A stretch of DNA of 64,000 bases from contig CM075991.1 of assembly GCA_038087875.1 (NCBI GenBank), positions 1,178,001 through 1,242,000 on the forward strand, given 5' to 3'. How positions within the stretch are numbered: position 1 is the stretch's first letter; every line of letters starts with the position of its first letter. The DNA is from Malacoraja senta. Taxonomy: Eukaryota. The position numbers and the translations under genes are program-made. This document shows positions 9,375 to 57,013 of this stretch, piece after piece. Below the pieces are notes generated by a model. That model had not been told where the DNA came from and ran no database searches. It saw only the letters and a program-made list of their open reading frames with translations.

Positions 9375-9607
9375 AGGCAGACAAAAATGCTGGAGGAACT
9401 CAGCGGGTGAGGCAGCATCTATGGAGCAAAGGAAATAGGCAACGTTTCGGGTCGAAACCCTTCTTCAGACTGATGTGAGGGGGGAGCGGGAAGATGAAAT
9501 GAAGAGGTGGAGCCAGTGGGCCGAGAGAGAGCTGAGAAGGGGAGGAGAAAGGAGGGACTACCTGAAATTAGAGAAGTCAATGTTCATACCGCTGGGGTGC
9601 AAACTGT
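9375..9607 (-). mobile_element. Short Penelope pLTR-derived element with intact minimal hammerhead core (9441-9468)
   Basis: The reverse complement reads CTGAAGAAGGGTTTCGACCCGAAACGTT, with the same flanks as the GIY-YIG elements. Confidence 0.75.
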
Positions 9608-9734
9608 CAGATCTCTCTCATTCTACAACACTCTTCAGATCTCTACCAGTTGCTTGGTAAGCCCTACCCTAGTTTGACACACCTCACAAATGTCAGTGTT
9701 GGGCAGATGAGAAATGCACCCTCACAGTTCCCAC

Positions 9735-12520
9735 AGACAATAGGTGCAGGAGTAGGCCATTCGGCCCTTTGAGACGGCACCACCATTCACTGTGATCATG
9801 GCTGATCATCCACATTCAGTATCCCGTTCCTGCCTTCTCGCCATATTTCCTGACTCCGCTATCTTTAAGAGCTCTATCTAACTCTCTCTTGAAAGCATCC
9901 AGAGAATTGGCCTCCACTGCCTTCTCAGGTAGAGAATTTCATAGATTCACAACTCTCTGGGTAAAAAAGTTTTTCCTCATCTCTGTACCAAATGGCCTAC
10001 CTCTTATTCTTAAACTGAGGCCCCTGGTTCTGGACTCCCCTAACATTGGGAAAATGTTTCCTGCCTCTAGCGTGTCAATCCCTTAATAACCTTATATGTT
10101 TCAATAGGATTCCCTCTCATCCTTCTAAATTCCAGAGTATACAAGCCCAGCCGCTCCATTCTAAAACATATACCAGTCCCGCCATCCCAGGGATTAACCT
10201 CGTGAACCTACGCTGCACTCCCTCAATAGCAAGAATGTCCTTCCTCAAATTTGGAGACCAAAGCTGCACACAATACTCCAGGTGTGGTCTCACTAGGGCC
10301 CTGTACAACTGCAGAAGGACCTCTTTGCTCCTATACTCAACTACTCTTGTTATGAAGGCCAACATGCCATTAGCTTTCTTCACTGCCTGCTGTACCTGCA
10401 TGCTTACTTTCAGTGAGTGATGAACAAGGACCCCCAGATCTCTTTGTACTCCCCCTTTTCCCAACTTGACACCATTCAGATAATAATCTGCCTTCCTGTT
10501 TTTGCCGCCAGTGGATAAGCTCACATTTATCCACATTAAACTGCATCTGCCATATATCTGCCCACTTACCCAACCTCTCCAAGTCACCCTGCATCCTCCT
10601 CACAGTTCACACTGCCACCCAGCTTTGTGTCATCTGCAAATTTGCTGATGTCACTTTGAATCCCTTCATCTAAATCATTGATGTGTATTGTAAATAGCTG
10701 CGGTCCCAGCACCGAGCCTTGCGGTACCCCACTAGTCACAGCCTGCTATTCTGAAAGGGACCCGTTAATACCTATTCTCTGTTTCCTGTCTGTCATCCAA
10801 TTTTCTATCCATGTCAGCACTCTACCCCCAATACCATGTGCTCTAATTTTGCCCAGTAATCTCCTATTTGGGACCTTATCAAATGCTTTCTGAAAGTCCA
10901 GGTACACTACACCCACTGGCTTTCCCTTGTCCATTTTTCTAGTTGAATCCTCAAAAACTTCAGATTAGTCAAGCATGATTTCCCCTTTGTAAATCCATGC
11001 TGACTCGGACCGATCCTGTTGTTGCTTTCCAAATGTCCCGTTATTTCATCTTTTATAATTGACTCCGGCATCTTCCCCACCACCGACGTCAGGCTAACTG
11101 GTCTATAATTCCATGTTTTCTCTCTCCTGCCTTTCTTAAAAAGTGGGATAAGATTAGCTACAATCCACAGGAACTGATCCTGAATCTATAGAACATTGGC
11201 AAATGATCACCAATGCATCCACGATTTCTAGAGCCATTTCCTTAAGTACCCTGGGATGCAGACCATCAGGCCCTGGGGATTTATCAGCCTTCAGTCCCAT
11301 CAGTCTACCTAACACTATTTCCTGCCTAATGAGAATTTCCTTCAGTTCCTCCACACCCTAGTGTACTGGCCACTAGTACATCAGGGAGATTGTTTGTGTC
11401 TTCCTTAGTGAAGACGGATCCAAAGTACCTGTTCAACTCGTCTGCCATTTCCTTGTTCCCATAATAAATTCACCTGTTTCAGTCTTCAAGGGTCCAACTT
11501 TGGTCTTAACTAATTTTTTCCTCTTCACATACCTAAAGAAGCTTTTACTATCCTCCTTTAAATTCTTGGCTAGCCTACCTTCGTACCTCATCTTTTCTCC
11601 CCGTATTGCCTTTTTAGTTATCTTCTGTTGCTCTTAAACGTTACCCAATCCTCTGGCTTTCCGCTCATCTTTGCTATGTTATACTTCTCTTTTATTTTTA
11701 TACTGTCCGTGACTTCCCTTGTCAGCCATGGTCACCCCTTACTCCCCTTGGAATCTTTCTTCCTCTTTGGAATGAACTGATCCTGCACCTTCTGTATTAT
11801 TCCCAGAAATGCCTGCCATTGTTGTTCCACTGTCATCCCTGCTATGGGTAATTTTCCAGTCAACTTTGGCCAGCTCCTCCCTCATGGCTCCATAGTCCCC
11901 TTTGTACACCTGTAATACTGACTCTTCCGATTTTCCCTTCTCCCTCTCAAATTGTAGATTAAAACATCATATTATGGTCACCACCTCCTAATGGTTCCTT
12001 TACCTCGAGTTCGCTTATCAAATCCGGTTCATTACACAACACTAAATCCAGAATTGTCTTCTCCCTGGTTGTCTCCAGTAAAAGCTGCTCTAAGAATCCA
12101 TCACAGAGGCACTCCACAAACTCTCTTTCTTGGGGTCCAACACCAACCTGATGTTCCCATTCTACCTGCATGTTGAAATCTCCCATAACAACCATAGCAT
12201 TACCTTTGCAACATGCCAATTTTAACTCTTGATTCAACTTGCACTCTATGTCCAGGCTACTGTTTGGGGGCCTGTAGATAACTCCTATTAGGGTCTTTCT
12301 ATCCATACTGACTACATCTCCTGATTCCATGTCCCCCCTCGCAAGGGACTGAATTGCATTCCTCACCAACAGAGCTACCCCACCCCCTCTGCCTTTTCGA
12401 TAGGACGTATACCCTTGAATTTTCAGTTCCCAGCCCTGGTCCTCTTGCAGCCACGTCTCTGTAATTCCCACATCATACTTGCCAATTTCTAACTGAGCCT
12501 CAAGCTCATCCACTTTATTT
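9735..12520 (-). mobile_element. CR1-clade LINE, degenerate ORF2 (endonuclease and RT)
   Basis: GITETWL..YRPPN..GDFN (11959-12513), KSPGPDGLHPRVLKE, YLDFQKAFDKVP, LVRPHLEYCVQLW, and a CR1-type 3' end GCCTACTCCTGCACCTATTGTC. Confidence 0.9.
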
Positions 12521-12946
12521 CTTTCTTTTTTTAAATTTCATATATCTTTATTTCATATATACTTTTAATCCATTACACCCCTCACCCTTCACATCAATTC
12601 CTTTTTCACTTGGCCTCACTCTTCTATCCTTTCCTGAGCTTTCTGCCCTGTTAATTCTGGTGTATTTCTTAACTTTTCTTATATTCTCTTTCCCTTTAAC
12701 TCCATCCATAGTTTGTCTCAGGTTCAACCACAAGGATGGGTACTGTCCATCTTATGTTTACCTCCAAAACTAAATGCTGGAAGAACTCAGTGGGCCAGGC
12801 AGTATCTCAGTCCTCCAGAGATGTTGTACTTTGAGGGGATTTAACCCATAGTCTTCTCAACCCGTCCTCTCCATATATCCTGGGACAACATTTAAAGGAA
12901 TTTGGACAAGTAAATGGAGAGGAAAGATATGATAGGTTAAACCTTT

Positions 12947-13078
12947 GTGTAGGAAGGAACTGCAAAGAAATGGATGACGTTTCAGTCTGAAGAAGGGTCT
13001 CGACCCGAAACGTCACCCATTCCTTATCCCCAGAGATGCTGCCTGGAGCGCTGTTACTCCAGCAATTTGTGTCTATCT
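12947..13078 (+). mobile_element. Hammerhead-bearing Penelope-derived mini-element with 14-bp TSD
   Basis: TAGGTTAAACCTTT at 12933-12946 and 13079-13092; intact core CTGAAGAAGGGTCTCGACCCGAAACGTC at 12987-13014. Confidence 0.8.
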
Positions 13079-13279
13079 TAGGTTAAACCTTTCCTGTCCA
13101 TGTGGGACTAGTGTAGATGGGGCATCTTGGTCGGCTTGGGAAGTTGTATCGAAGGGCCCGTCTCCATGTATGACTCTACTGTAATTAAGTGGGTAAACAA
13201 TTGAAAGGACATTGATTGCATTGCCGTGTACTTCAGATAGACACAAGGAACAGCAGATGCTGCTTTGGATGCAGCAGTC

Positions 13280-14392: not shown

Positions 14393-14469
14393 CGCAGTAT
14401 TGACCGGTTCCGAGGGCCGAGTGTGCAGCCTCGGAGCCCCAGTTGAAGGGAAGATAGGTGAGGGTAAGA

Positions 14470-14635
14470 ATAGGTGACGTTTCGGGTCGATACCCTTCTT
14501 CAAACTGAAGAAGAACGGCCCCGAACCGAAACGGCACCTATTTCTTCCTTCCAGAGATGCTGCCTGTCCCGCTGAGTGACTCCAGCTTTCTGTCTTCTCT
14601 TCGGTTTAAACCAGCATCTGCCGTTCATTCCCACA
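14470..14635 (+). mobile_element. Head-to-head Penelope pLTR mini-element (two mutated hammerhead cores)
   Basis: TAGGTGACGTTTCGGGTCGATACCCTTCTTCAAA followed by CTGAAGAAGAACGG..CCGAAACGGCACCTA and the standard pLTR flank. Confidence 0.7.
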
Positions 14636-21339: not shown

Positions 21340-22065
21340 TGGTAGCAAACTTTTGGATTTTTTGGGGGGATGTAACAAGTGGAAAGGGTAATGGAATGCC
21401 AGTGGATGTGGTGTACTTTCAAAAAGCCTTTGACAAGGTCCCACACAAGAGATTAATGTGTAGAATTAGAGCACATGATATTGGGGGTAGGGTAGAGGAT
21501 AGAGAGCTGGTTGGCAGACAGGAAGCAAAATGTAGGAATTAACTGGTCCTTTTCAGAATGGCAGGCAGTGACTCGGGCTTGCCACAAGGCTCGGTGTTGG
21601 GACCAGATTTATTTACAACATATATTAACGATTTAGACAGGGTCATTAAATGTGGCATCTCTAAGTTTGTGGGTGACACAAAGCTGGGTGGCAATGGAGC
21701 TGCGATGAGGATGCTAGGAGGCTGCAGGGTGACTTGGATAGGTTGGGTGAGTGGGCAGATGCAGTATAATGTGGATAAATGTGAGGTTATCCACTTTGGT
21801 GGCAAGAACAGGAAGGCAGATTATTATCTGAATGGTAGGTGGACACAAAATGCTGGAGTAACAGGCAGCATCTCTGGAGAAAAGGGATGGGTGACGTTTC
21901 GGGTCGAGACCCTTCTTTAGACCCTATTATCTGAATGGTGTCGGATTAGGAAAAGGGGGGGTGCAACAATATCTGCATGTGCTTGTACATCAGTCACTGA
22001 AAGTAAGCATGCAGGTGCAGTAGGCAGTAAAGAAAGCTAATGGCATGTTGGCCTTCATTGCAGAG
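21340..22065 (+). mobile_element. CR1 RT fragment carrying a pLTR mini-element (21837-21924, TSD TATTATCTGAATGGT)
   Basis: FQKAFDKVPH and PQGSVLGP motifs; the 15-bp duplication lies at 21822-21836 and 21925-21939. Confidence 0.8.
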
Positions 22066-22910
22066 ATTATGGAAGGGTAAGGTGTGAAAACAGACATCAA
22101 AGGGGACGATGAACAAGGAAAATATGGAATAGATCATTGTTAGCTAGGGGAAGGTGACAACAAAGCATACAAAAGTAAAATTTAATCAGGAGAACACTCA
22201 GATTGGTTGGAGAACTAAGATGGGGAGGGATGGAGAGAGGGAAAGAAACGGTTATCGTATTTCCCGGCAATGAAGACACTATTTTTAATCCTAAAATAAG
22301 CCCCGAAAATTTACCTGCATCTTGGAGGTCGAAGGTTAAATTGTTAGCCAAGAAAGATAGACTTGGCTATCCCTCAGTACAGCAGCTGTAAAAGGACAGC
22401 GCTTCTGGGGGGGGGGGGGGCCTTTACGCAGCGTGTGGGGAGTCTGGCCTGGGTCAGCACGGCAAAGTAGAAAAACTTGGGCCACCAGGGGAGGGCAGGA
22501 GCGTTGAGAAGGAAGGGGTCGGGGATCATGGCAGCAACTCGCTCAGTAGCTCGGCTCTCGCTCTCTCTGTGTGCTCCCCTAGTATATCTGATGTCTTGCA
22601 ATCCGCTACTCAGTATGTAATGGTAGTTATGTGGACAGATTATCATTTAAATATGATAGACCGGGGTAGACATTTGCAGTTAGCACAGCCTTGCCCATCT
22701 ATCTAACGATAATCTAGAACAGGCATTTGCTACGTGTCACACGTGTACATTTAATGACAGATTTGGGCGTCCGTTTTCATTCTGGTAGTTCCTCCCACGT
22801 TGAAAACACTGGTGTTCCTCCTCTCTCATTTTGTCCATTTGGTAGTCACAACTGGGGCATGTTCCTACATCAAGGCTGACCAGGCTTGCAACAACAATGA
22901 AGCAGAACGT

Positions 22911-23047
22911 ACACAAAAATGCTGGAGAAACTCCGCGGGCGAGGCAGCATCTATGGAGCTCTCTTGATGCTGCCTCACCCGCTGAGTTTCTCCAGCATTT
23001 TTGTCTACCTTCGATTTTCCAGCATCTGCAGTTCCTTCTTAAACATG
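22911..23047. mobile_element. Palindromic pLTR mini-element with centre deleted
   Basis: Inverted arms 22913-23004; degenerate TSD ATGAAGCAGAACGT (22897-22910) and ATGAAGTAGAATGT (23048-23061). Confidence 0.75.
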
Positions 23048-23244: not shown

Positions 23245-24362
23245 GTAAGTACCAGCTAGCTTAGAATTTGAATAGATTATTTTTTTGTTTCTTGAAAGCC
23301 TTGAAGTAATATTTCAATAGAATTGTACAACAGAGGAATTGACCCTTCAGCCCACCAGGTTCATGCTGACAATTCAACCATCTTTTCCAGTGCACTTACC
23401 AGCACTTGGACCATGGCCAAGTATACACAGTGCTACTCAAGAGACTTTGTCTCTGCTCACCCTCGAGCAGTGCCTTCAGATTTCAACCATCCTCTTGGTG
23501 AAAAAAGTTGTTATGAGTTCTAAACCAACTACTTGCCTTAAACCTATGCCCTTTGGTTTTAGATACCTCAACCAAGGGGAAAAGATTTGCTCTCCTGTCC
23601 TGTATTCCTTTCCATTTTGTACATTTCAATTGAGTTTTTCTCCCACCCCTCTTGTGTCTAATGCATCCAAGGAAATCACCTTTCATATCAAAGCATATTC
23701 AGCCCAGAGAACACAACTTCTGTGCTTAAATGAAACTGGTGCATGGTCACTATCTGCTAAGTTCTTTTTAAATGGCTAGTTGTGATGCATCAAGAACCCA
23801 GGATGCTCTGTGTGGGAGCAGTGATTTAATGTGACTGCCAGCTGGTGAATATGTGAAAACTGCAGAAATTAGACACAAGCAGGAATGGGTGACCTTTCGG
23901 GTCGAGACCCTTCTGACTGATGTCATGGGAGTGGGCGGTACAGAGATAAAATGTAGTCTGAGATAGTAAGACTGGTGGGAGAACTGGGAAGGGGGAGGGG
24001 ATGGAGAGAGGGAAAGCAAGGGCTACTAAAGTATGCAGAAACTACTTTCTTAATCACTTCTATAACAAGATTTTTTTTCAATAGCCTTTGTTTTATCCCT
24101 ACATTGATTTATACTGCTGCATTTTAATAAAGATAAAAACTAGATCGTGTCTTCTGCTATTCTAATAATAGAGACATTTGTGGACCATGTATCCGTAAAG
24201 CCAGTTTTCTGAGACTTGCATCTTGAGTTTAATTATATTGGTTTGTGGTATTCAGTCTTTTTTGTCTCATCTTTTCAGTTGATGTTTAATTTGGGAAGGG
24301 TAGAAATTACGATATGTTAGATTAGTTCTTGTGATTCTGAAGTAATCAATTTCATTTCCTAG

Positions 24363-25553: not shown

Positions 25554-25832
25554 GAGAAAGAAAAGCTAATGTAGATAACAATGTAATGGATAAGAAAAGT
25601 GAGGATTACTATTCGGTATCCAAGGATGTCGTGGAAGAGACCTGTTTTAAACTTCCTTTGGCTGATTCAGCATCTGATGTCAAGACCCCTGTGGCCGATG
25701 CAGTTTCTGCTGTTTTGCCCATGAAGCAGAGTGGAAGAATTGCTTTTGTAGGGGATTCAGCAGAAGATGTTGGAAAGGATGGTGTTTCTAGTGGAGAGAT
25801 AAAGGAAAGTAATATTGATCGCGTGATGAATG
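25554..25832 (+). CDS. slc20a1: SLC20A1 coding exon 6 (variable cytoplasmic loop)
   Basis: (R)ERKANVD..EIKESNIDRVMN; CAG acceptor, G|GTAAGA donor; phase 1-1 fits both neighbours. Confidence 0.85.
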
Positions 25833-32842: not shown

Positions 32843-32859
32843 AAGATCCTCTTTTCTGC

Positions 32860-37655: not shown

Positions 37656-37664
37656 CCATGAACC

Positions 37665-37793: not shown

Positions 37794-37838
37794 ATGGCGG
37801 ACGTAACCGCTCGCAGTCTGCAATATGAGTACAAAGCG
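37794..37838 (+). CDS. snrnp200: SNRNP200 (BRR2) exon 1
   Basis: MADVTARSLQYEYKA followed by donor GTAAGT; matches the vertebrate SNRNP200 N-terminus. Confidence 0.97.
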
Positions 37839-42531: not shown

Positions 42532-45500
42532 TTAAACTCCATCTGCCATCTTTCAGCCCACTCTTCCAAATAGCCTAAATCTCTCTGTAGACTTTGAAAA
42601 TCTACTTCATTATCCACCACACCACCTATCTTAGTATCATCTGCATACTTACTAATCCAATTTTCCACACCATCATCCAGATCATTGATGTACATGACAA
42701 ACAGTGGACCCAACACAGACCCCTGAGGCACCCCACTAGTCACCGGCCTCCAACCTGACAAACAGCCATCCACCATTACTCTCTGGCATCTCCCATTCAG
42801 CCACTGTTGAATCCATCTTGCTACTCCACCATTAATACCCAACAATTTAATCTTCTTAACCAACCTTCCATGAGGAACCTTGTCAAAGGCCTAACTGAAG
42901 TCCATATAGACAACATCCACTGCTTTACCTTCATCAATTTCCCTAGTAACCTCTTCGAAAAATTCTAGAAGATTAGTCAAACATGACCTTCCAGGCACAA
43001 ATCCATGTTGACTGTTCCTAATCAGACCCTGCTTATCCAGATGCTTATATATATTATCTTTAAGTATCCTTTCCATTAATTTGCCCACCACTGACCGTCA
43101 AACTAACAGGTCTATAATTGCTAGGTTTACTCTTAGAACCCTTTTTAAACAACGGAACAACATGCGCAGTACGCCAATCCTCCGGCACTATTCCCATTTC
43201 TAATGACATTTGAAATATTTCTGTCATAGCCCCTGCTATTTCTACACTAACTTCCCTCAATGTCCTCGGGAATATCCTGTCAGGACCTGGAGACTTATCC
43301 GTTTTCATATTTTTCAAAAGTGTCCGCACCTCCTCTTCTTTGAATCTCATAGTTTCCATTGCTACTCTGCTTGTTTGCCTTACCTCACCTAATTCCATAT
43401 CCTTCTCCTTGGTGAATACCGAAGAAAATAAATTGTTCAATATCTCCCCCATCTCTTTTGGCTCTGCAGATAGCTGTCCACTCTGACTCTCTAATGGACC
43501 AATTTTATTCCTTGTTATCCTTTTGCTTTTAATATAGCTGTAGAAACCCTTTGGATTTACTTTCACCTTACTTGCCAAAGCAACCTCATATCTTCTTTTA
43601 GCTTTTCTAATTTCTTTCTTAATATTCTTTTTATATTCTTTATACTCTTCAAGCACCTCATTTACTCCATGCTGCCTATAATTATTATAGATCTCTCTCT
43701 TTTTCCGAACCAAGTGTCCAATTTCCCTTGAAAACCATGGCTCTTTCCAATTTTTACTATTTCCTTTCAACCGAACAGGGACATAAAGATTCTGTACTCT
43801 TAAAATTTCACCTTTAAATGTCCTCCATTTCTCTTCTACATCCTTCCCATAAAACAACATGTCTCCTTTTAAATCCTTTCGCATCTCCTCAAAGTTAGCC
43901 TTTCTCCAATCAAAAATCTCAACCCTAGGTCCAGTTCTGACCCTCTCCATAATTATATTGAAACTAATGGTATTGTGATCACTGGACCCCAAGTGCTCCC
44001 CGACGCTTACCTCCGCCACCTGCCCTGTCTCATTTCCTAACAGGAGGTCCAGCACTGCCCCTTCTCTAGTAGGTACCTCTATGTATTGCTGCAAAAAACT
44101 ATCCTGCACACATTTTACAAACTCCAAACCATCCAGCCCTTTTACAGAATGTGTTTCCCAGGCTATGTGTGGAAAATTGAAAACTCCCACAATCACTACC
44201 TTGTGCTTACTACTAATATCTGCTATCTCCTTACATATTTGCTCTTCCAATTCTCGCTCCCCATTTGGCGGTCTATAATACACCCCTATAAGTGTTGCTA
44301 CACCTTTCCCATTTCTCAGCTCCACCCAAATAGCCTCCCTAGACGAGCCGTCTAATCTATCCTGCCAAAGCACTGCTGTAATATCTTCCTTGACAAGCAA
44401 TGCAACACCCCCACCTCTTGCCCCTCCAATTCTATCACCCCTGAAGCAACGAAATCCTGGAATATTTAATTTCCAATCACAGCCCTCCTGCAACCATGTT
44501 TCACTGATCGCCACAACATCATGCTTCCAGGTGTCAATCCAGACTCTAAGCTCATCCACCTTTCTTACAATGCTCCTAGCATTAAAATATACACATTTAA
44601 GAAACCCACCACCACTTATTCTCTGTTTATTAACTTTTTCTTCTTTCTCCCCTACATTTTGGGTCCGAGTGCTTCCCTTCTCTGCCTCCTGCCTCCCACA
44701 ATTTCTACTATCTTTCTCTATTTGAGTCCCTCCTCCCAACCATTCTAGTTTAAAGTCTCCCCAGTAGCCTTTGCAAATCTCCCCGCCAGGATATTGGTTC
44801 CCGTTGGTTTCAAGTGCAACCCGTCCTTTCTGTACAGGTCACACCTTCCCCAAAAGAAGTCCCAATGATCCAGAAATTTGAATCCCTGCCCGCTGCACCA
44901 GTTCCTCAGCCACGCATTTATCCTCCACCTCATTTCATTCCTACTCTCACTGTCGCGTGGCACAGGTAGTAATCCTGAGATTGTTACCTTTGCAGACCTA
45001 CTCCTTAACTCTTCTCCCAACTCCCTACATTCTCCTTTCAGGACCTCTTCTCTTTTCTGCCTATGTCATTGGTACCTATATGTACCACAACCTCAGGTTC
45101 CTCTCCCTCCGATATCAGGATATCTTGGACGCGTTCAGACACATCCCTGACCCTGGCACCAGGGAGGCAAACTACCATCCGGGTCTCCTGACTGCGTCCA
45201 CAGAATCGCCTATCCGACCCCCTAACCATAGAGTCCCCTATTACTATTGCCCTCCTCTTCTTTTCCCTACCCTTCTGAGCAACAGGGCCGGTCTCTGTGC
45301 CGGAGGCCCGGCCGCTGTTGCTACCCCCAGGAAGGCTGTCCCCCCCAACAGTACTCAAACAGGAGTACTTATTTTCAAGGTGTACAGCCATAGGGGTACT
45401 CACTAGTCCCTGCCTCTGCCCCTTGCCCTTCCTAACCGTGACCCACTTGTCTGCCTCCCGTGGTCTTGGAGTGGCTACCTCCCTATAACTCCTTTCTATG

Positions 45501-45686
45501 ACCTCCTCACTCTCCCAGATCAGACAGAGGTCATCGAGCTGCTGCTCCAGGTTCCTAACACGGTCCCGTAGGAACCCCATCTCTGCGCACCTGACACAGA
45601 TGTGGACGTCTGGAGGGGTATCAGACTCCATGACCTCCCACATCTGACATCCAGAACAGTAAACTGCCCTGGCCCTCATTCTCCCC

Positions 45687-45853
45687 CCTTACCCTGGATA
45701 CAATACCAAGCCTTACCCTGGATGCAATATAAAGCCTTACCCTGGATATAATACAAAGCCTTACCCTGGATGCAATATAAAGCCTTACCCTGGATATAAT
45801 ACAAAGCCTTACCCAGGATACAATATAAAGCCTTACCCTGGATATAATACAAA
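45687..45853. repeat. 24-bp tandem repeat, 7 copies, in the CR1 5'UTR
   Basis: Units CCTTACCCTGGATRYAATAYAAAG, contiguous with no spacers. Confidence 0.95.
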
Positions 45854-46221
45854 CTAGTGGAGGAAATCAGCAGGGATCTGACTCCCAATCAGCTGCTTCC
45901 TCTTAGTCCTCTTCCACCAATCAGCGACTTCCTCACTTATAGGAAACTTGAATGGAACGTTGTAGTTTTTGGCTCCTCCTCCTGCAACGGTCCCTGGGCG
46001 TCTGGAAAGCAAAGCCCCGCGCTGTTTAACTACTCACTACCCGGACGCTGCTCCTCCTCCTGCAACGTATCCCTCAGAATACTCTCCAGTAACTAACCAA
46101 CTACCGATGTTAAGCTCACCGGCCAATAGTTACCAGCATTTTCCCTGCAGCCCTTCTTGAAAAGTGGTACAATATTTGCCACCCTCCAGTCTTCCGGCAC
46201 CTCTCCTGTATTTAAGGACTC

Positions 46222-46428
46222 TGCCTCAGAGGGCGGTGGAGGCCGGTTCTCTGGATACTTTCAAGAGAGAGCTAGACAGGGCTCTTAAAGATAGTGCAGT
46301 CAGGGGATATGGGGAGAAGGCAGGAACGGGGTACTGATTGTGGATGATCAGCCATGATCACATTGAATGGTGGTGCTGGCTTGAAGGGCCGAATGGCCTA
46401 CTCCTGCACCTATTATCTATTGTCTATT
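46222..46428 (+). mobile_element. CR1 3'-end fragment inserted in the older CR1
   Basis: Tail CCTGCACCTATTATCTATTGTCTATT; flanking GACTC duplication. Confidence 0.7.
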
Positions 46429-47685
46429 GACTCGTAAATATCAACCAGGGCTCCCGCAATTTCCTCTGTAGTTTCCCTCAATGTCCTCGGATATATGAGA
46501 TCAGGCCTTGGAGATTTGTCTACCTTCAAACACGACAGTACCTTCAGTACTCCTTCGACAGTAACTCTGACTGCTCTCAAGACAGTTCAATTGACTGCTC
46601 CAATTTCTTCCATCCTACTATCTTTCTCCTCGGTAAATACAGATTCATGAGAGGTCCCATTCTCTCTCTAGTTACCCTTTTCTCCCTTAAATATTTATAA
46701 AATCTTTTAGGATTGTCCCTTAATGCTACCAGTCAGAGCTACCTCCTGGCCCCTTTTTGCCCTTCTGATTTCCTTTTTTAGTTTACTCCTTAGTTCCAGA
46801 AACTCCTTCAGGGATGTACTTGATCTCAGCTGCCCATACCTGTCCCATGAATCCTTCTTGTTTTTGACTAACGTCTCAATTTCCCTCGTCCGCCAAGCTT
46901 CCTTACGTTTGCCTGCTTTGCTCGTCACTCTAACAGGGACATACACATCCTGAGCTTTCTTCAGTACACTTTTAAAAACATCCCACTTGGCCGATGTCCT
47001 TCCTCCTCTAATAACCTGCTCCAGTCAACTTGAGCGAGACCTTCTCTCATACCCTCAAAGTTGTCCTTACCCCAGTTGTGCATTTTAACTTGTGGACCCT
47101 CTACGTCCCTATCCATAACTATCTTAAACCTCATCGAACTGTGGTCACTGGTCCCAAAAGGCTCCTCCACACACACCTCATTAACTTGCACGTCCCAACT
47201 TCCCAATACTAGATCCATTGTTGCCCTCTTACATGTGGGGGCCTCCACATACTGCTTAAGAAAACTCTCCTGAACACTTTTGAGGAATTGCACCCTGTAG
47301 TATACCCCCAACAAAGTGATCATCCCTTTCTTGTTCCTCAGCTCCACCCATATAGCCTCACTAGACGAACCGTGCGGTGAATCTGATCTGGGCGGAGGAG
47401 AGCGTCCAGCACCCGCTGTGGGTCCCAAACGCACCGCCATCGCAACGCTCCGCACCTCCAGCCCCGTCCCCTCTGGTCCCCCTCGCTGGCTCCTGCCCCC
47501 TCCTCCGTGATACCCCCCCTCTCCCCATGGATCTTCCCCCGTCTTTTCTCCGAGCTCGCCCACACGCCAGCATGGACGTAGCTTCTGGTGCTTCCTGGCT
47601 GATCCGAGGCCTGGCTCTGAGGGCGGTGACGGCTGCTGCTCCGGGGAACGCAGGAAGGGAGTGGAGCGGCAACCTCAAGATCCTG

Positions 47686-48150
47686 GGGAGGGAGAGTGGG
47701 GGAGGAGAGGGGATAGAGGGAGGGAAGTAGGGAGGGGAGAGGAGTTATAGAGGGAGGGACTGAGGGTACGGGGAAAGGAGAAGAGGGGATTGGGGAGGGT
47801 AGGAGGAGAGGGAGGTGAGGAGGGAGAGTGGAGGAGGAGGGGGAATAGAGGGAGAGGATGGAGGGAGAGGATGGAGGGAGTGGGGGTGGTAGGGATTGGG
47901 GAATAGAGGGGGAGGAGGGCAGTGGGGGAGGTGAGGAGAGATAGTGGGGGGGTAGGGGGAGGTGAGGAGTGGGGGATAGAGGGATAGGAGGGGGGTAAGG
48001 GACGGGTGAGGAGCGAGGGAGGGAGTGACTGAGGTTAGGGGAAAGGAGAGGGAGAGAGGTAAGGGAGGGATGGGGGGGGGAGGGGAGGAGGAGAGGGGAA
48101 AGAAGAAAGAGGGTGAAGAGGAGGGGGAGAGTGCTAGGGATAAGGGGAAA
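47686..48150 (+). repeat. Purine/G-rich low-complexity tract
   Basis: About 460 nt of GGGGAG/GGAGG runs, almost free of C. Confidence 0.85.
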
Positions 48151-48278
48151 TGAGCTGCGCCTGTCCAGTTGGGGGCTATGGGTGAGTGGTGAAATATTGC
48201 GTTGGGGTTCCAAGCCTCCTGTGTGACAGGGACCCAACGGGTCCCACTTAGTTTAGTTGATTCTAAAATGTCAAATGA

Positions 48279-48590
<312 letters not shown>

Positions 48591-49816
48591 TAAGTAATGC
48601 CTAAAGAGCTGGAGTAGCTCAGTGGATCAGGCAGCATTTATGGAGGACATGGTAGTCTGAAGAAGGTTCCTGACCCGAAATGTCACCAATCCATTAAAGA
48701 TGCTGCCTGACCGCTAAAATACTTCAGTGACAGTGTTTTATTTTTGTAAACCAGCATCTACAGTTCTTTGTGTCTATGTAAAGCCTATATTCTCAACATT
48801 TAAGATTGCAGTTGAATTGTAATTAAAGACATTTATTTGCCACTTAGTCATGGTGTACCAATTTTCCATGTGTGTGTTTATTTTGAATGGTAAAATAGTT
48901 TAAGTAGCATGTCTGGAATAATTGAGAAATCAGAACATAGAAACATAGAAAATAGGTGCAGGAGTAGGCCATTCGGCCCTTCGAGCCTGCACCGCCATTC
49001 AATATGATCATGGCTGATCATCCAACTCAGTATCCTGGTTAAATATTTATGTTCAATATTTTTATTAATGTATTTAAACATACAGAGCTTTCCAAATGAT
49101 AGGACTAAACTTGAATTTGAATGTATATTAAGTCACTTAGAACAATTTATTCCTTACATTTAATCAGCTTGCAAAGGACATTGAAATATATGAAAGGAAA
49201 TATTTATCTTCTATGCACCACAAGAAATTATATCAGGGCCATCCACTGGCATTTATATCCCTGCAGCTGTTAAAATAATTATACATTCAGCTTTCCCGTT
49301 CATATGAATAGAGACTCATTTTTTCTACATTGGACAACAGTTTTAATTTTTCTATGGATGTACGGAAACTTAATTATATCTTCTATGTAAAGCACTTTGG
49401 TTTCAACGCGAGTTGATTTAAACGTGCTATATAAATAAAATGTACTTACTTACTTGTGAGAGTACAGGAGAGAAGAAGCTGGTTATCTGGTGATATTTGT
49501 TTGTGCATTTAAAAAAATTTCTTCTGTTTTCATTAAAAAATGAAGACATTCAGAAAGTCACATGACAGAGGGACTGATCTCTGGTACTTTCGAGGTGATG
49601 TGCTAAGATGCTGTGTAAATGTAATTCTGTATTCGGGATTATGGTTGATACATGAATAAATGTGTGCCAGTCAGTTATGACAAGTCTTTGCAGGTCTTTT
49701 ATTTTTGTTGCCTGGGAGTTTACTAGAATATTTCTGGTAAGACTTCTAGACCATGTTTCCTATTCTGTGAGCTGGTTATGTTTTTCCCACATAATATATT
49801 GCTGTATTCAAATTAA

Positions 49817-50152
<336 letters not shown>

Positions 50153-51393
50153 TAAAATACGCTGAAGCTTAATTTCAACGCTGAAGGAACATTGTTTTGT
50201 CAAGGATTGCTGCCTTCCCAATCAGACTTTGATTTACCTGCCTGCAAGAAATTACATGCCACTGTCCCACAGCAGTGGGGAAACCATGTTCACTAAAGAA
50301 CAAGGACATTTGTATGGCCTAGAATGCAGTGCAGACGGAGAATTTGAAGGCGTCTGTGCAAGTGGCGGAGGAGGAGGTGTGGTCCACATAACTGATTTGA
50401 GAGAATAGCTGATTGTTCAACACAGATGGATAGCCAGCAACACAGAACTGTAATCTATGTATATAAGAGTGCTAGTTGAAGAATTTATAAGAAAAGAAAG
50501 AAAGAATATTTAGAATTTCTTTGCTGATTGTTTTCAAAATGAATGTTTTTAGCCATGGTAAACCAATAGGGTAGCAAATGGTTTTGTTTTGTTCCAAAAC
50601 GCTACTGTGCACTGGCGTTTAAAGCCAACATACAATCATCTCTCTGCATTGAAACCATAAGCAAACAGTGAATCTTGGTGTTGTAAAGATGTTTAGGAAT
50701 TAATCGATTTCCATTTGTATAACCTGGAACGTACTATTTTCAGGACAGTGATTGGTCTTGCACAATGTAACACATTTTGAGCAAAACCATTGATTATTCA
50801 ACACTTTGTACAATCCGAATAATTTGGTAATAATCGCATACTGATTTGACGTCATAAAATTAATTCTGCCCGATAAAGATTGTTCACTAGTAATGGAAAA
50901 CAAATAAAATTGCAAAACTAAAATAGAAAGGCTGGAAGAAGTCATCCAGTCAAGCGGTATCAAGATTATTCACCAAATACTGATAAGATAATGTTTTGCC
51001 TTTTAATTGATTACGTTTTGACAGGTTAATATTTGAATAATTTTTTCACTTATTTTCATTGTTTTTTATTTGTTATTTTAGTTTTCAAATATAATGCACT
51101 TCCTTTCTTACTGTTTATTCCGACCCTGTTCTGTCATAGTTGAGCGTTTCTTATCTCGTGTGCCTTATGTACTTGCGTCACTGCTGAAGGTACATGTGGA
51201 ATAGATAGGACAAATATATTGCTCGCTGTATTTCCTCTTTGCAGTTACATCTGAAATACATACAATGAGTGAGTTAACATGGGAAAAGCAACGGGGTAAA
51301 TTTAGCACTCTGAGTGCTGCATTGTTTATATTTATAATAAGACTAGCTTTCCTTTACACGTGCAGCAGGGAGATTATCTTGTTTCTTTTCTAG

Positions 51394-51586
51394 CCCCGTG
51401 ATATCCTCTGTGGAGCAGCAGATGAGGTCCTGGCTGTGCTGAAAAATGATAAACTGCGTGACAAGGAGCGGCGAAAGGAGATAGAAATGCTACTGGGGCA
51501 ATTGGAAGATACTCGTTACCATGTGCTTGTAAATCTGGGAAAGAAAATTAGTGACTATGGAGGAGACAAAGAGGTGCAGAATATGG
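51394..51586 (+). CDS. snrnp200: SNRNP200 exon 4
   Basis: [42 protein letters not shown] acceptor, GTAAGC donor. Confidence 0.97.
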
Positions 51587-51639
51587 GTAAGCAGGATCAA
51601 TACTTCCCAGTTAATAAAGATGCTGAAACTCTTCACAAT

Positions 51640-52225
51640 CACCTGTTCTAGGTGTGGACTCCCATATATCGGCGAGACCAAGCGCAGACTGGGCGATTGT
51701 TTCGCTTAACACCTTTTCTCAGTCCGCCTTGGCCTTCGCAATCTTCCGGTTGCCAAACACTTTAATTCTCCTTCCCCTTCCCATACTGACTTTTCTGTCC
51801 TGGGACTCCTCCACTGTCAGAGTGAGGCCAAATGCAAATTGGAGGAATATTTTGCTTGAGCAGCTTACAACACAGTGGCATGAAAATTGATTTCTCTAAC
51901 TTCAAGTAACCCTTGCTTTCCCTCTCTCTCCGTCCCTCCTCCACCTTTGTCATCCTACTAGTTTCACGGTTGTCCTGCTTAGTTTCACACTTTGTATCCA
52001 CTCATTATCACCTTCTCCACAGCCAACAATGGACCATTGTGGGCTCCACCTTTCCTTGATCATCGTTGCTGACGTTGATTTGCATACTATTCATTCTTTT
52101 ATTCTTTGTACTTTTTCATATCTCTATAATTTCCCTCCGTGTGAGGAAGGATCTCGACCCGAAACGTCACCTATTCCTTTTTTCTCAGATGTAACTCCCC
52201 GAGTTACTCCAACATTTGTGTCTAT
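51640..52225 (+). mobile_element. Penelope-like 3' fragment with pLTR
   Basis: YIGETKRRLGDCFA..PVAKHFNS; degenerate hammerhead at 52141-52168. Confidence 0.8.
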
Positions 52226-53515
52226 TTTCACAGTAAATAATCTGCTGTATGACTAGGTCAGATTAGGTTTATTATTGTAACAATAAAATAATTTTGTAAG
52301 CTATCAGATCAGATAATACCATACATAAATACAATCAAATCAAACTCATGTACAACAAAGGGAAGGATAAAGAATGCAGAACATAGTTCTCAGCATTGTG
52401 GCAGGTCAGATATCACTGGTTTAGCATTTGGCTAACCAGGTAATGCTTGCAGTGTTTTGGGGCCCCACTTCCCATTCTCCCTACCAGCTTACTGGGCCTA
52501 GTTTCTGCGTTACCATGGAACTTACCGTGTTGACTGGAACACTTATCATTCTATCGTGTAACATATATTTTTTAAAGATGCTGAGCTAAAAGAGTGCTGA
52601 AGTATGAATAGGAATAGCATCCAATGGTCTCAGCATCTACACTCAATCATTCCACTGCAACTTTGTTTCAGCTATTGATTGAAATTGGATTTTAACATTA
52701 GTTTCTAATTGCCCATGAGTCTGCTACTGTGAGGAATACACACGAGCATTTCACTTACCGATGTCAACTTATTAATCCATTTATCTTAAGTGCTCATGCA
52801 GTCGCAATAAAGATTTCATAAATAAGGAGGCAGTACTTTCCTCAAGTCCACAGCTTCTTTAAACATGAATTGATTTGCTTAGATTTTGGCAACCAGACTG
52901 CACCTGTGTATCTCTACTGTTCCCTACCCAGCTGCAGCTAGAAAGGCGATTCCTCGCGGTAACAGACCTGTGTGTAATTAGAAGCTAATGTTAAGATTCA
53001 ATTTCAATTAATAGCTGTAACCAAGTTGCAATGGAATGATTAGTTGAATGAAAATACTGAGACTATTGGATGCTATTCCTATTCCTACTCCAACATACTT
53101 TTAACAGCAAGAAAACAGCAGCACCAAAATATAATACTTCATTGGTAATGAACGAGAATGAAACCTCATGAACAAATTACATTCTTTTGATCTGTATCTG
53201 GCAAAAAGGGCTATCTTTTAAATGTCAACTTCCACTTTTGCCTAAATCCCCTTCTCTTTTCATGAACTCTCTTTTTCAACCTGCCTACTGTGTCACTAGG
53301 GTGCTTTAATAAAAAACAAGAATGAGCAGGGGCACACTTCTGGGTAATGAGATACAAGGTGCTGGGGTAACTCAGTGGGTCAGGCATCATCTATGGCAGA
53401 CATGGATAGTGACGTTTCTGGTCTCTTTTGGTAGCACAGTATCCGCAGTTTCTTGTTTCAGTACATCTTGGTTTCGAGAACTGGTTAGAACTAATGTTCC
53501 ATTTTCCTCTTCCAG

Positions 53516-53571
53516 ACGACAACATTGATGAGACATATGGAGTGAATGTGCAGTTTGAATCTGACGAGGAG
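53516..53571 (+). CDS. snrnp200: SNRNP200 exon 5
   Basis: (D)DNIDETYGVNVQFESDEE; CAG acceptor, GTGAGT donor. Confidence 0.96.
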
Positions 53572-53621
53572 GTGAGTGAAGTAGCTTTACAAATCAATTA
53601 CCCGTTACACTTTTGTCTCTA

Positions 53622-54520
53622 AGAGTCATAGTGATACAGTGTGGAAACAGTCTCAACCCAACTTGCCCAACATGTCCCAGCTACACTAGTCCCTCTACCC
53701 GCGTTTGGTCCATATCCCTCCAAACCTGTCCAATCCATGTACCTGTCTAACTGTTTCTTAAATGTTGGGATAGTTCCTGCCTCAACTACCTCCTCTGGCA
53801 GTTTGTTCCATACACCCACCACCCTTTGTGTGAAAAAGTTACCTCTCTGATTCCTATCAAATCTTTTCCCCTTCACCTTAAACCTATGTCCTCTGGTCCT
53901 CGATTCACCTACTCTGGGCAAGAGACTCTGTGCATCTACTCGATCTATTCTCCCCATGATTTTATACATCTCAATAAGATCACCCCTCATCTTCCTGCGC
54001 TCCAAGGAATAGTCCCAGCCTACTCAACCTCTCCCTATAGCTCAGACCCTCTAGCCCTAGCAGCATCTTTGTAAATCTTCTCTGTACCCTTTCTAGCTTG
54101 ACAACATATTTCCTATAACTTGGTGCCCAGAATTGAACACAATACTCTAAATGTGGAGTAAATGGCCTCACCAACATCTTATCAACTGTAACATGACCTC
54201 CCAACATATACTCAATACTCTGGGTGATGAAGGCCAATGTGCCAAATGCCTTTTTGAGCACCCTATCTACCAGCGACACCACCTTCAAGGAACCATGCAC
54301 CTGCGCTCCTAGATCCCTCTGCTCTACAACCCTCCCCAGAGCCTACCATTCACTGTATAGGTCCTGTCCATGTTAGACTTCCCAAAATGCATCACTTCAA
54401 ATTTCTCTGTATTAAATTCCATCAACCATTCCTCAGCCCAGCTGGCCAATCGATCAAGATCCCGCTGCAATTTTTGACAACCATCTTCACTATCTGCAAA
54501 ACCACCCAGTTTTGTATAAT
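53622..54520 (-). mobile_element. CR1 3' fragment
   Basis: PHLEYCVQFWAP, RGDLIEMYKI and FFTQRVVGVWNKLP. Confidence 0.85.
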
Positions 54521-55043
54521 CTCTTAGGTCAGGAAATTTGCTCAATGGAAAAATGGTGGGCAGGGAGAGCTAATCCATCCCATTCAATATTTGGAGGCTG
54601 AGAAATAAGGCATAATGGGATAATGCTGCTATTACAATGCTGAGTGTCTATGATTTGTGAGGTGGATGCAGCAAGGTTTCATGGGAAATAGACAGACCCA
54701 CTGAATCCTGGGGACATGGCAGATAAACTGTGAGAAAACAGTGTTGGTGTTCAAGAGACACTGAAAGTTAACCTGCATCTCTGATTCGGGCTGTGTCAGT
54801 AAGTACTCATCAGCTGTTCATTCCTGCTGCAATCGGAGATTGTATTCTATGATGCATCTAGACACCGCACATTGGCATAGCTGGTAGATTTGCTGCCTCA
54901 AGCCTATCCTAACCTGGATTCAATGCTGACCTCTGATTCTATATGTGTGGAGAGGAAACATGGGTTTCCTCCAGGTGCTCTGGTTTCTGTCCTCATCCCA
55001 AAGTCGTGTCAACTGGTACGTTAAATGGACACTAAAAATTGCC

Positions 55044-55170
55044 GTAGACACAACTCAGCGGGACCGGCAGCATCTCTGGAGAGAAGGAATGGGTGACGTT
55101 TCGGGTCAAGACCCTTCTTCAGCATTTTGTGTCTACCTTCGATTTAAACCAGCATATGCAGTTCTTTCCT
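55044..55170 (-). mobile_element. pLTR mini-element with intact hammerhead core (55095-55122) and 13-bp TSD
   Basis: TSD ACTAAAAATTGCC at 55031-55043 and 55171-55183. Confidence 0.8.
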
Positions 55171-55774
55171 ACTAAAAATTGCCATCTTGATTTACGAGGA
55201 TATTGAAGGTTTTAGCTATAAGAAGAGGTTGAGTGGGCTCGGACTTTATTCATTGCAGCACAGGAGGCTGAGGGTAATCTTATAGAGGTATATAAGATCA
55301 TGATGGGAATAGATAGGGTAGATGCACACTGTTTTAGTAGGGGAATGAAGAACAAGAGGCCATTGGATTAAGGTGAGAAGGGGAAGTTAATTGGAAATTG
55401 TGGGCAATTTGCAACTTTTTCACAACGGGTGTATGGTACGAGGTCACAGAGGGGGTAGTAAAGGCCAGTTCTATAACAACATTTAAAGGACATTTGGACA
55501 GGTACATGGATAGGAAAGGTTCAGAGGGATATGGGTTAAACACGGGCAGGTGGGACTAGTATAGATAGGACATCTTGGTTGGCATGGGCAAGTTGGTCTG
55601 AATGGCCTGTTTACATGCTGTATATCTCTGTGCAGGTGAGTGGTACAGACTAGGTGGGAGCAGTTGATTGGAATGTATGGAGAATAAAATGGGATAGGTG
55701 AAAATTGGTGGCCCAGTCTCAGTGAGCCAAATGCCGATTTCTGTACCCTGGCTCTGAAATGGGAACAACTGCAC

Positions 55775-56050
55775 TGTTTAGTTTAGAGATACAGTGTGGA
55801 AACAGGCCCTTCAGCCCACTGAGTCCACGCCGATCACCCATATACTAGTTCTATCCTACACACTCTAGGAACAATTTACAGAAGCCAATTAACCTACAAA
55901 CCGGCATATCTTTGGAATGTGGAGAAAATCAGAGTACCGTGAGAAAATTCACACGGTCATAGGGAGAATATACTCATTTCTACAGAGAGCACCTGCAGTC
56001 AGGATGAAACCCTGGTCTTTGGCGTTGTAAGTCAGCAACTCTACCGCGAC
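55775..56050 (-). mobile_element. tRNA-derived SINE (same family as 2227-2527)
   Basis: The reverse complement has GGTAGAGTTGCTGACTTACAACGCC and the tail CTGTATCTCTAAACTAAAC. A partial copy lies at about 62190-62375. Confidence 0.75.
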
Positions 56051-56167
56051 ACTACTGTCAGATTCTATGAAGATACATTTTGTAATGGTGGGTTTCTGAA
56101 ATGGGAAACCTTCTACAGATTGTTTAATTTGGCCCTTTTTCTGTTTTTTGTTCAATTTCTATTTCAG

Positions 56168-56266
56168 GAGGGTGATGAGGATGCATTTGGTGAAGTGCGG
56201 GAAGAAGCATCGGATGAGGACACAGAAGGCGAGGAAGCAGACATCAGCTGTACACTTTCTGCTAAT
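56168..56266 (+). CDS. snrnp200: SNRNP200 exon 6
   Basis: [36 protein letters not shown] acceptor, GTGAGT donor. Confidence 0.95.
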
Positions 56267-56585
56267 GTGAGTGTTGGCATAAATATTGTGTGGTGTGAGC
56301 ATGGGAAGAATGACCGGAGTAGTGGGGTCCTGAGAGGGAAGGTAGCTGTTTGGGATAATATTGTTTCCTTGCCCGATTCTGTTTTATTTATAAACGATGA
56401 CACGGTGTCAGGTTGAAGCAAAATCCCCACTGCACTTGAAGAGCAGCATTAATAAGAATGGCCATTCCAAACAAAAGTTGAGACTGGGGTTTGTGGTAAT
56501 TTGTATATAGTGCCTGTAATGAGTTGAGTCGAACATTGCCAATCTACAGTGCCATTGTTTAGTGAGCTGCCTTTGCTTTTCTCAG

Positions 56586-56738
56586 CTGGGTGCTGCTGGA
56601 GATGTGCTGAGTGCTAAGAAGAAAGACCTCCATCCCAGGGACATTGATGCTTTCTGGCTCCAGAGACAGCTCAGCCGCTTCTACGATGATGCCATCATGT
56701 CGCAAAAGAAAGCTGACGAAGTGCTGGATATCCTGAAG
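56586..56738 (+). CDS. snrnp200: SNRNP200 exon 7 (start of PWI-like domain)
   Basis: [44 protein letters not shown] acceptor, GTGAGC donor. Confidence 0.97.
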
Positions 56739-56790
56739 GTGAGCTCCAAACTGCTGGTAGAGTGCCCAGAAATGGGCATTGTATTCTATA

Positions 56791-57013
56791 GGTAGACAAA
56801 GTGCTGAAGAAACTCAGCGAGTGCAGCAGCATCTATAGAGCGAAGGAAATAGGCAACGTTTCGGGCCGAAACCCTTCTTCAGTCTGAAGAAGGGTTTCGG
56901 CCCGAAACGTTGCCTATTTCCTTCGCACCATAGATGCTGCTGCACCCGCTGAGTTTCTTCAGCACTTTTGTCTACCTTCGATTTTCCAGCATCTGCAGTT
57001 CCTTGTTAAACAG
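56791..57013. mobile_element. Palindromic double-hammerhead pLTR element with 11-bp TSD
   Basis: Arms 56790-56882 and 56884-56977; TSD TGTATTCTATA at 56780-56790 and 57014-57024. Confidence 0.88.

What the first reader, a model, noticed from the sequence alone, without database searches (positions are those of the whole stretch)
9441..56911. Dispersed family of mobile minimal hammerhead-ribozyme mini-elements derived from Penelope pseudo-LTRs
Seen: a 28-nt motif CTGAAGA-A-GGGT-N4-RCCC-GAAACGT(C/T) is intact at 9441-9468(-), 12987-13014(+), 34490-34517(+), 36405-36432(-), 55095-55122(-), 56855-56882(-) and 56884-56911(+), with about 10 more damaged copies. It maps onto the hammerhead core: CUGANGA, stem II, GAAA, palindromic ACGU stem III and a GUH cleavage site. 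Among the intact copies, variation falls in the stem II loop (CTCG/TTCG/CTTG) or keeps pairing (U-A versus U-G). The same module terminates the GIY-YIG fragments. Several 90-220 bp copies without coding sequence have their own 9-15 bp TSDs, so they inserted as independent units. Known: Penelope-like elements carry minimal type I hammerheads with a palindromic stem III that cleave as dimers. Inference: this is an abundant retrozyme-like non-autonomous family mobilised by Penelope, placing potential self-cleaving RNA in introns and promoters of essential genes. Caveats: stem I is only about 2 bp in cis, and the short copies could be heavily 5'-truncated Penelope insertions.
Basis: partly seen in the sequence, partly recalled or inferred. 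Interest (0 to 1): 0.8.

Follow-up and report, generated by a model that had tools for sequence, protein, structure and literature searches.

The report
Penelope hammerhead scraps in a skate
The short repeats are real and are the end piece of a Penelope-type jumping gene carrying an already described minimal hammerhead-ribozyme motif; they are likely inert by-products of that element's copying rather than an independent family, and their shared start just before the motif likely marks where the copied RNA begins.

Summary
Observation confirmed: 7 exact motifs (6 insertions) at the stated places, none expected by chance, and about 26 units in all. Six units of 88-223 bp have exact 9-15 bp target duplications.

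The module is the 3' pseudo-LTR of a Neptune-type Penelope-like element (PLE) in a skate-like fish. The same core follows the endonuclease in 52 of 67 related loci, with covarying stems I and II, so it is a real minimal hammerhead of a published kind.

The retrozyme reading is not supported. There are no tandem units in the window. Copies span the cut site, end at the PLE's two 'tail' positions, and often form the textbook inverted pair. In subfamily A the core decays as fast as its flank, and the hammerhead fold is disfavoured in cis.

One non-trivial trait: 5' ends pile up 0-3 nt before the core (8 of 22 copies; also in contigs of five organisms). The best reading is run-off cDNA, started at the internal site of the upstream pseudo-LTR and ending at the RNA's 5' end; this is untested. 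This scan reported the same family and the same start point before on other DNA.

The parts
1141..2128 (-). 5'-truncated PLE: GIY-YIG end, 3' UTR, damaged hammerhead core (1242-1269), tail end
6851..8161 (-). 5'-truncated PLE (RT thumb to endonuclease), long 3' UTR, damaged core 6915-6942, short end
9377..9606 (-). pLTR copy, subfamily B, exact core 9441-9468, 138 nt of upstream sequence including the ORF end
12947..13078 (+). inverted tail piece plus module starting about 3 nt before exact core 12987-13014; 14-bp TSD 12933-12946/13079-13092; about 400 bp upstream of the SLC20A-like CpG island
14460..14635 (.). inverted pair in the first intron of the SLC20A-like gene; both cores damaged; junction at the core's 5' edge; tail end on the right
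21837..21924 (-). 88-bp single unit, core with a G5 change, starts 3-4 nt before the core, 15-bp TSD, inside a LINE RT fragment
22908..23045 (.). inverted pair with no hammerhead core at all; one short end, one tail end; degenerate TSD of about 14 bp
23872..24025 (-). pLTR copy, core with deletion, about 107 nt upstream
33984..34077 (+). 94-bp unit starting 1 nt before a damaged core; 9-bp TSD
34373..34582 (+). pLTR copy, exact core 34490-34517, 117 nt upstream; intergenic
35692..36290 (-). GIY-YIG fragment with CX4CxxC linker; pLTR with the hammerhead core deleted
36340..36451 (-). 112-bp unit, exact core 36405-36432, 19 nt upstream, 11-bp TSD
36557..37648 (.). four damaged copies (36557-36645-, 37061-37210-, 37329-37455-, 37538-37648+) upstream of the SNRNP200 start codon at 37794
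48600..48772 (.). older inverted pair; forward copy starts 3 nt before core 48657-48684; inverted copy begins just after the predicted cut site
51644..52225 (+). GIY-YIG fragment, long 3' UTR, damaged core 52141-52168
55044..55170 (.). inverted pair, exact core 55095-55122(-) lacking the stem I 5' strand; short end plus tail end; 13-bp TSD; SNRNP200 intron
56791..57013 (.). 223-bp fold-back insertion with two exact cores (56855-56882-, 56884-56911+); short end left, 38-nt tail right; 11-bp TSD; SNRNP200 intron
24814..63522 (.). older diverged copies at 24814-24893, 34129-34252, 34999-35100, 53350-53425, 63450-63522, plus a remnant at 12769-12808

Best explanation
These repeats are the hammerhead-bearing terminal repeat (pseudo-LTR) of a Neptune-type Penelope-like retrotransposon, and the short copies are likely dead-on-arrival by-products of that element's integration, likely copied from uncut RNA. 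Shown here: the module follows the GIY-YIG ORF, has two alternative 3' ends about 38 nt apart, forms inverted pairs with one short and one tail end, carries 9-15 bp TSDs, and has 5' ends clustered 0-3 nt before the core. Inferred: the RT starts internally at those two 3' sites, as shown for the Anolis PLE. A start in the downstream pLTR gives ordinary 5'-truncated copies. A start in the upstream pLTR would run off the RNA's 5' end after about 95-135 nt and give the mini copies. Priming on both target strands would give the fold-back pairs. The ribozyme matters for the master element, likely as a dimer or with protein help, and not for the inserted copies.
For: Link to the ORF. Neptune-type CX2-5CxxC linker in the window ORF and in 101 of 110 stored relatives with a YIGET motif (definition in PMC8557442). 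Core 105-175 nt after the endonuclease match (27 exact-core loci measured), present in 52 of 67 related loci against 1 of 67 on the reverse strand. Stems I and II are 92% paired, with 5 of 7 pairs changing on both sides; slid controls give 16-44%. All 4 complete TSD-flanked inverted pairs have one short and one tail end, the structure described by Craig et al.. One pair has no core and one ORF-linked copy has the core deleted, so the core is not needed for a piece to be present. 8 of 22 by-eye 5' ends fall in a 5-nt window (1 of 200,000 uniform simulations). Loose ends with long, AT-rich, low-agreement flanks lie at -2/-3 in contigs of 5 organisms. Depth does not fall from the downstream part into the core across the cut site. 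The core decays like its flank in subfamily A: 14/136 against 69/684. Stem II probability is 0.01-0.21 for the 7 exact cores in the -3..+100 context. In the Anolis PLE, hammerhead mutants still insert, unprocessed RNA is the main template, and the template must extend past the RT start (PMC11167929).
Against: No RNA 5' end was mapped: only contigs were available. In D. virilis Penelope the start site lies 46 nt plus a 75-nt intron upstream of helix I, so a start at -3 is not general. Loose ends at 9473-9475 are as numerous as at 9470-9471, and alignment clipping where subfamilies diverge could inflate the hot spot. Diverged old copies in the window have no matching ORF-bearing partner, which leaves room for non-autonomous masters. 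Subfamily B shows 0/55 core changes against 17/289 in the flank (p=0.09), though copies lacking the core were not in that count. One inverted copy (48608-48654) begins exactly after the predicted cut site. The Anolis data are from the Poseidon clade, not Neptune.
Confidence: 0.72

Rival explanations
1. Same PLE origin, but the 5' pile-up is an RT arrest or template-switch hot spot at the 5' edge of stem I (the TCAG-N-CTGA near-palindrome, or a protein-bound hammerhead) on long RNAs, not an RNA end.
For: All five opposite-strand joints listed have one side at 9470-9475. The junctions at 56883 and 14505 sit on the palindrome. Position -3 is also the first base of stem I. Invertebrate-like relatives without the TCAGT sequence also show starts near the core: 5 of 17 same-family non-ORF-linked copies begin at -10..+2 (3 cross-family matches left out of 20).
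Against: Non-inverted single copies also start there (21924, 33984; unique flanks). An RT would be expected to stall before a structure rather than after it (general knowledge). One group of relatives has a TATA box at -37..-39 (25 of 32 members of 3 related clusters; absent in the other 10 clusters).
Confidence: 0.3
2. A SINE-like non-autonomous family: 95-135 nt copies are themselves transcribed and re-mobilised in trans by the Neptune protein.
For: Defined 5' and 3' ends, own TSDs, high density (about 26 units in 64 kb), a conserved 8-bp helix joining the body to the tail. Non-autonomous PLE derivatives are known.
Against: Short copies share their sequence with ORF-linked pLTRs of the same subfamilies. 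A continuum of longer 5' ends exists (-19 to more than -1000). Copies end at the RT start sites, and the Anolis template needed sequence beyond the start.
Confidence: 0.15
3. A retrozyme: units released by double self-cleavage, circularised and reinserted, with active self-cleaving RNA in host introns.
For: The hammerhead core is real. Rare head-to-tail duplications of the core (33-46 nt) exist in contigs (table 5c; table 5, up to 13 contigs in one run). The 2026 preprint reports tandem retrozymes in its one chondrichthyan.
Against: No tandem module in the window. Copies span the cut site. The core is minimal, not canonical with loop 1-loop 2 contacts. The hammerhead dimer fold is 9-20 kcal/mol above the best dimer fold. 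The core decays neutrally. In the preprint 8 of 9 tested dimers did not cleave.
Confidence: 0.05
4. The boundary is a 3' splice site (pyrimidine tract plus CAG) as in D. virilis Penelope, and short copies come from spliced RNA.
For: A pyrimidine-rich tract followed by CAG lies just before the core. The D. virilis intron ends at helix I.
Against: This predicts starts at -1 joined to a common upstream exon. The listed loose ends are at -2/-3 with no common sequence. No listed joint has intron-type ends at that place (tables cut). Two window copies have GG instead of AG.
Confidence: 0.05

Closest known systems
Minimal hammerheads (min-HHR) in pLTRs of metazoan PLEs (Cervera and De la Pena 2014, PMC4209133; read parts 1-2 of 4: results, discussion, part of methods)
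   Same: [quoted passage not shown]
   Different: Stem II is 4 bp and stem I 2-3 bp here. Skates are not named in the parts read. A 5' start hot spot is not described in the parts read.
EN+ PLE insertion unit, Neptune clade (Craig et al. 2021, PMC8557442 and its preprint; passages read)
   Same: C-terminal GIY-YIG with CX2-5CxxC linker and CCHH motif, 5' truncation, adjacent inverted copy, 30-40 bp tail on one end.
   Different: Here the insertions shrink to the terminal 90-135 nt. Clade assigned by the linker motif only; no RT tree was built.
Poseidon PAc of Anolis (Frangieh et al. 2024, PMC11167929; read parts 1-2 of 4; supplement not seen)
   Same: Two adjacent internal RT start sites giving the tail; hammerhead upstream of them; uncut RNA as template; protein-assisted cleavage.
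   Different: Different clade. In PAc the ORF starts inside the hammerhead; here the ORF start is unknown. The run-off origin of mini copies is my inference.
Animal non-LTR retrozymes (Cervera and De la Pena 2020, PMC7229834, passages; bioRxiv 10.64898/2026.07.22.740005, parts 1-3 of 5; supplements not seen)
   Same: Type I hammerhead, PLE pLTR ancestry, no coding capacity; dispersed monomers are noted in the preprint.
   Different: Retrozymes are defined by tandem units with a hammerhead in each and, where tested, circular RNA. The window copies are solo or inverted and end at PLE tail sites.

Membership tests
Minimal type I hammerhead of PLEs | Core CUGANGA ... GAAA ... UH with an inserted nucleotide before stem II | tested here: met
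Minimal type I hammerhead of PLEs | Stems I and II supported by covariation | tested here: met
   92% paired, 5 of 7 pairs change on both sides; 16 hand-picked related sequences, skate stem I only 2-3 bp
Minimal type I hammerhead of PLEs | Palindromic 15.1-16.1 (ACGU) allowing an intermolecular stem III | tested here: met
   invariant in 16 of 16 rows, but the relatives were picked with a palindrome filter
Minimal type I hammerhead of PLEs | Self-cleavage as a dimer or with protein | not testable with these tools
   fold predicted disfavoured in cis and as a dimer
EN+ PLE, Neptune clade | C-terminal GIY-YIG after a PLE RT | tested here: met
   Pfam GIY-YIG; relatives with RVT_1 plus this endonuclease
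EN+ PLE, Neptune clade | CX2-5CxxC linker before the endonuclease (shared with Nematis) | tested here: met
EN+ PLE, Neptune clade | RT phylogeny places it in Neptune | not tested
   no labelled reference set in hand
EN+ PLE, Neptune clade | pLTR with inverted 5' copy and 30-40 bp tail at one end | tested here: met
   (38 nt; 4 of 4 complete pairs)
Non-LTR retrozyme | Head-to-tail tandem units each with a hammerhead | tested here: not met
   none in the window; only rare 33-46 nt core duplications in contigs
Non-LTR retrozyme | Unit-length RNA bounded by cleavage sites, circular RNA | not testable with these tools
   no raw RNA reads; DNA copies do not start at the cut site
Non-autonomous (SINE-like) PLE derivative | Own master sequences distinct from autonomous pLTRs | tested here: inconclusive
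   young short copies match ORF-linked pLTRs; no genome held

The most novel reading that the evidence does not exclude
The Neptune mRNA starts 3 nt before its hammerhead, and internal RT initiation in the upstream pseudo-LTR makes strong-stop-like cDNAs of 95-135 nt that integrate by themselves or as twin-primed fold-backs. Skate genomes would then hold a huge in vivo record of PLE transcription start, RT start sites and uncut template. The rare head-to-tail core duplications that restart at -3 would be double hammerheads, the seeds of retrozymes.
Probability: 0.4. Interest if true: 0.42.

Novelty: new member of a known kind. Interest (0 to 1): 0.2.

Why it matters
As a family it is ordinary: a published motif in a published element type. 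Its value is as a data set. The role of the hammerhead in endonuclease-bearing Penelope elements is still unclear (Craig 2021). Copies that span the cut site and start just before the core agree with the in vitro result that uncut RNA is the template, and they give a cheap test of where PLE RNA begins. There is no sign that the copies cut host transcripts.

Tried and rejected
Rfam scan: no hammerhead family reached E<=1; the 5 hits are below their gathering scores, the best two from the fold-back hairpin. Minimal cores are not modelled well, so this is no evidence either way.
Exact motif scans of metagenome and viral contigs: 0 hits. No genome is held for this window, so no genome-wide copy number or subfamily tree.
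Sequencing runs: no RNA holder listed; X19 and X21 are only guessed RNA, and contigs cannot show RNA ends. Contig depth was not used as a copy number.
ORF start inside the module: an ATG frame exists, but it had no meaningful match among 134 stored proteins, and no full-length chondrichthyan ORF was among the 120 listed of 422. Unresolved.
Orientation bias in introns: 2 sense and 5 antisense pieces in SLC20A-like, 5 and 4 in SNRNP200. Too few to read.
An extra untemplated G at the 5' junction: one window copy fits (21924), and first loose letters at 9471 were mixed. Not claimed.
A TATA box upstream in the skate copies: none in 7 checked.
Literature searches. None of the listings or passages read describes this skate family or a start hot spot before the core; most subscription papers and Repbase are not searched, and the supplements of the 2014, 2024 and 2026 papers were not seen.
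Full report
OBSERVATION. The 28-nt motif is present exactly at all seven stated places; 15 matches at <=3 mismatches stand against 0.00 expected, and 19 at <=6. With self-BLAST and reading by eye there are about 26 insertion units. Six of the 26 have exact flanking duplications of 9-15 bp abutting the unit, against 1.6% of 3000 random pairs (unit bounds set by eye); the inserts measure 88-223 bp. The two motifs at 56855 and 56884 belong to one insertion.

HOST CONTEXT. The GIY-YIG fragment at 35857-36285 has its best named relatives in Leucoraja erinacea (79%) and Rhinoraja longicauda (77%), then rays and sharks, so the host is a skate-like fish (inference). Two plus-strand genes are present. 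One is a PHO4-family phosphate transporter (CpG island about 13.4 kb, stop at 31820; the name SLC20A is recalled). The other is SNRNP200/Brr2 (E=5.6e-9; the first exon at 37794 is recognised from recall). Of the seven exact cores, 9441, 12987, 34490 and 36405 lie outside these genes, 55095 and 56855 are antisense in SNRNP200 introns, and only 56884 is sense. That one is half of a near-perfect fold-back of -170 kcal/mol.

WHAT THE MODULE IS. It ends four ORF-bearing fragments, after pyrimidine-rich 3' UTRs of about 90-330 nt that differ by subfamily. The ORF has the CX2-5CxxC linker that marks Neptune and Nematis (PMC8557442). Among 80 related loci from metagenome contigs (about 50% protein identity), 52 of the 67 with enough downstream DNA carry the core with <=2 substitutions, against 1 of 67 on the reverse strand. 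On 16 hand-picked sequences, stems I and II are 92% paired and 5 of 7 pairs change on both sides; slid controls give 16-44% (the sequences are related, so the shuffle figure is not a probability). This is the min-HHR of Cervera and De la Pena 2014, who report thousands per genome, mostly single and probably from truncated PLEs, with opposite-strand pairs, no activity as a monomer and low activity as a dimer.

3' ENDS AND INVERSIONS. Copies stop at one of two places 38 nt apart. The four complete inverted pairs with a TSD (12947, 22908, 55044, 56791) each have one short and one long end. Craig et al. describe this as the usual PLE unit: an inverted 5'-truncated copy and a 30-40 bp tail on one end. 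Frangieh et al. showed that the tail lies between two internal RT start sites, that hammerhead mutants still insert, and that cleavage needs the protein. The pair at 22908-23045 has no core and the ORF-linked copy at 35692 has lost it.

5' ENDS. Leaving out the four ORF-linked copies and the inverted partners, 8 of 22 by-eye 5' ends fall 0-3 nt before the core (1 of 200,000 simulations under a uniform null from -140 to +55); the rest spread from -138 to +50. In contigs, loose ends with long, low-agreement (0.32-0.39), mostly AT-rich flanks occur at 9470/9471, that is -2/-3. They were listed in 3 of 4 runs and 4 of 4 runs, five organisms in all; X1 and X2 may be the source sample. Loose ends at 9473-9475 are as many but purine-rich, as expected from other subfamilies' UTRs. 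All five listed opposite-strand joints have one side at 9470-9475. Depth does not drop on crossing the predicted cut site into the core, and no loose end at the cut site is among the listed rows (the table is cut). One inverted copy (48608-48654) does begin right after the cut site. In the distant relatives, 5 of 17 same-family copies not linked to the ORF start at -10..+2, and one group of three related clusters has a TATA box at -37..-39 (25 of 32 members; 0 in the other 10 clusters, a post hoc look). The skate sequence at -5..+2 resembles an initiator element (consensus recalled).

ACTIVITY OF THE COPIES. In subfamily A the 11 core positions carry 14 changes in 136 cells against 69 in 684 downstream (p=1.0). 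Subfamily B has 0/55 against 17/289 (p=0.09), with core-less copies not counted. In contigs, G12 and C11.1, a CpG, vary in roughly 4-11% of depth, as neutral decay would give. For the seven exact cores in the -3..+100 context, stem II has probability 0.01-0.21 and stem I about 0, mostly because the core's purine run pairs with a conserved pyrimidine run downstream. The hammerhead dimer lies 9-20 kcal/mol above the best dimer fold (nearest-neighbour energies ignore tertiary contacts and protein). So the core is conserved between master elements but not maintained in inserted copies.

MECHANISM. Shown: PLE origin, two 3' ends, inverted pairs, TSDs, 5' clustering, neutral decay. Inferred: transcription starts in the upstream pLTR (shown for D. 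virilis), here about 3 nt before the core. The RT starts internally about 95 or 135 nt further on. If it does so in the downstream pLTR it makes ordinary truncated copies; if in the upstream pLTR it runs off the RNA end and leaves a mini copy; priming from both target strands leaves a fold-back pair. Such copies lack the sequence beyond the RT start that the Anolis template needed, so they would not move again. The by-product reading holds at about 0.72 overall. Within it, run-off from an RNA end and arrest or switching at stem I are not separated by my data, and D. virilis starts transcription about 120 nt upstream of helix I, which argues against generality.

COMPARISON AND VERDICT. It works like, and meets the tested sequence criteria of, a PLE minimal hammerhead in a Neptune-type pLTR. 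[quoted passage not shown] The idea that animal retrozymes derive from PLE pLTRs is in a 2026 preprint that includes one chondrichthyan. My five literature searches showed no description of this skate family or of the start hot spot, within the limits of the library. This scan's index lists 27 similar findings in at least 6 genomes, 8 shown, several with the same start-point remark; these are unchecked notes and not independent support. New member of a known kind; interest 0.2.

Noticed in passing
contigs laid on window 9429-9474: Rare head-to-tail duplications of the hammerhead core, 33-46 nt period, several restarting at -3 (up to 13 contigs in one run); these could form a double hammerhead in cis.
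   Followed up: no
window 56931-56938 with 56990-56997 and equivalents: An 8-bp helix joining the module body to the tail is kept in 6 of 6 tail-bearing copies (47 of 48 cells), without compensatory changes; candidate RT-binding or initiation structure.
   Followed up: partly
P0009 C-terminus: A Stegostoma PLE protein model reads through its stop into a peptide like the translated skate core, suggesting the same hammerhead in sharks. Several ray and skate gene models appear to be host-PLE fusions.
   Followed up: no
L005, L008, L022 clusters: TATA box 37-39 nt upstream of the hammerhead core in one group of invertebrate-like Neptune pLTRs.
   Followed up: partly
window 36557-37648: Four damaged copies crowd the CpG-rich region upstream of SNRNP200. 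A minus-strand donor-like site near 36910-36920 hints at a divergent transcript.
   Followed up: no
window 2997-5613, 10117-12537, 19243-19815, 39181-45688, 53619-54342, 60893-61507: Many LINE fragments (RT, endonuclease) and a Tc1/Sleeping Beauty-type transposase remnant.
   Followed up: no
window 34717-34830 and 13240-13270: Further old, diverged pieces of the same module that BLAST did not list (seen).
   Followed up: no
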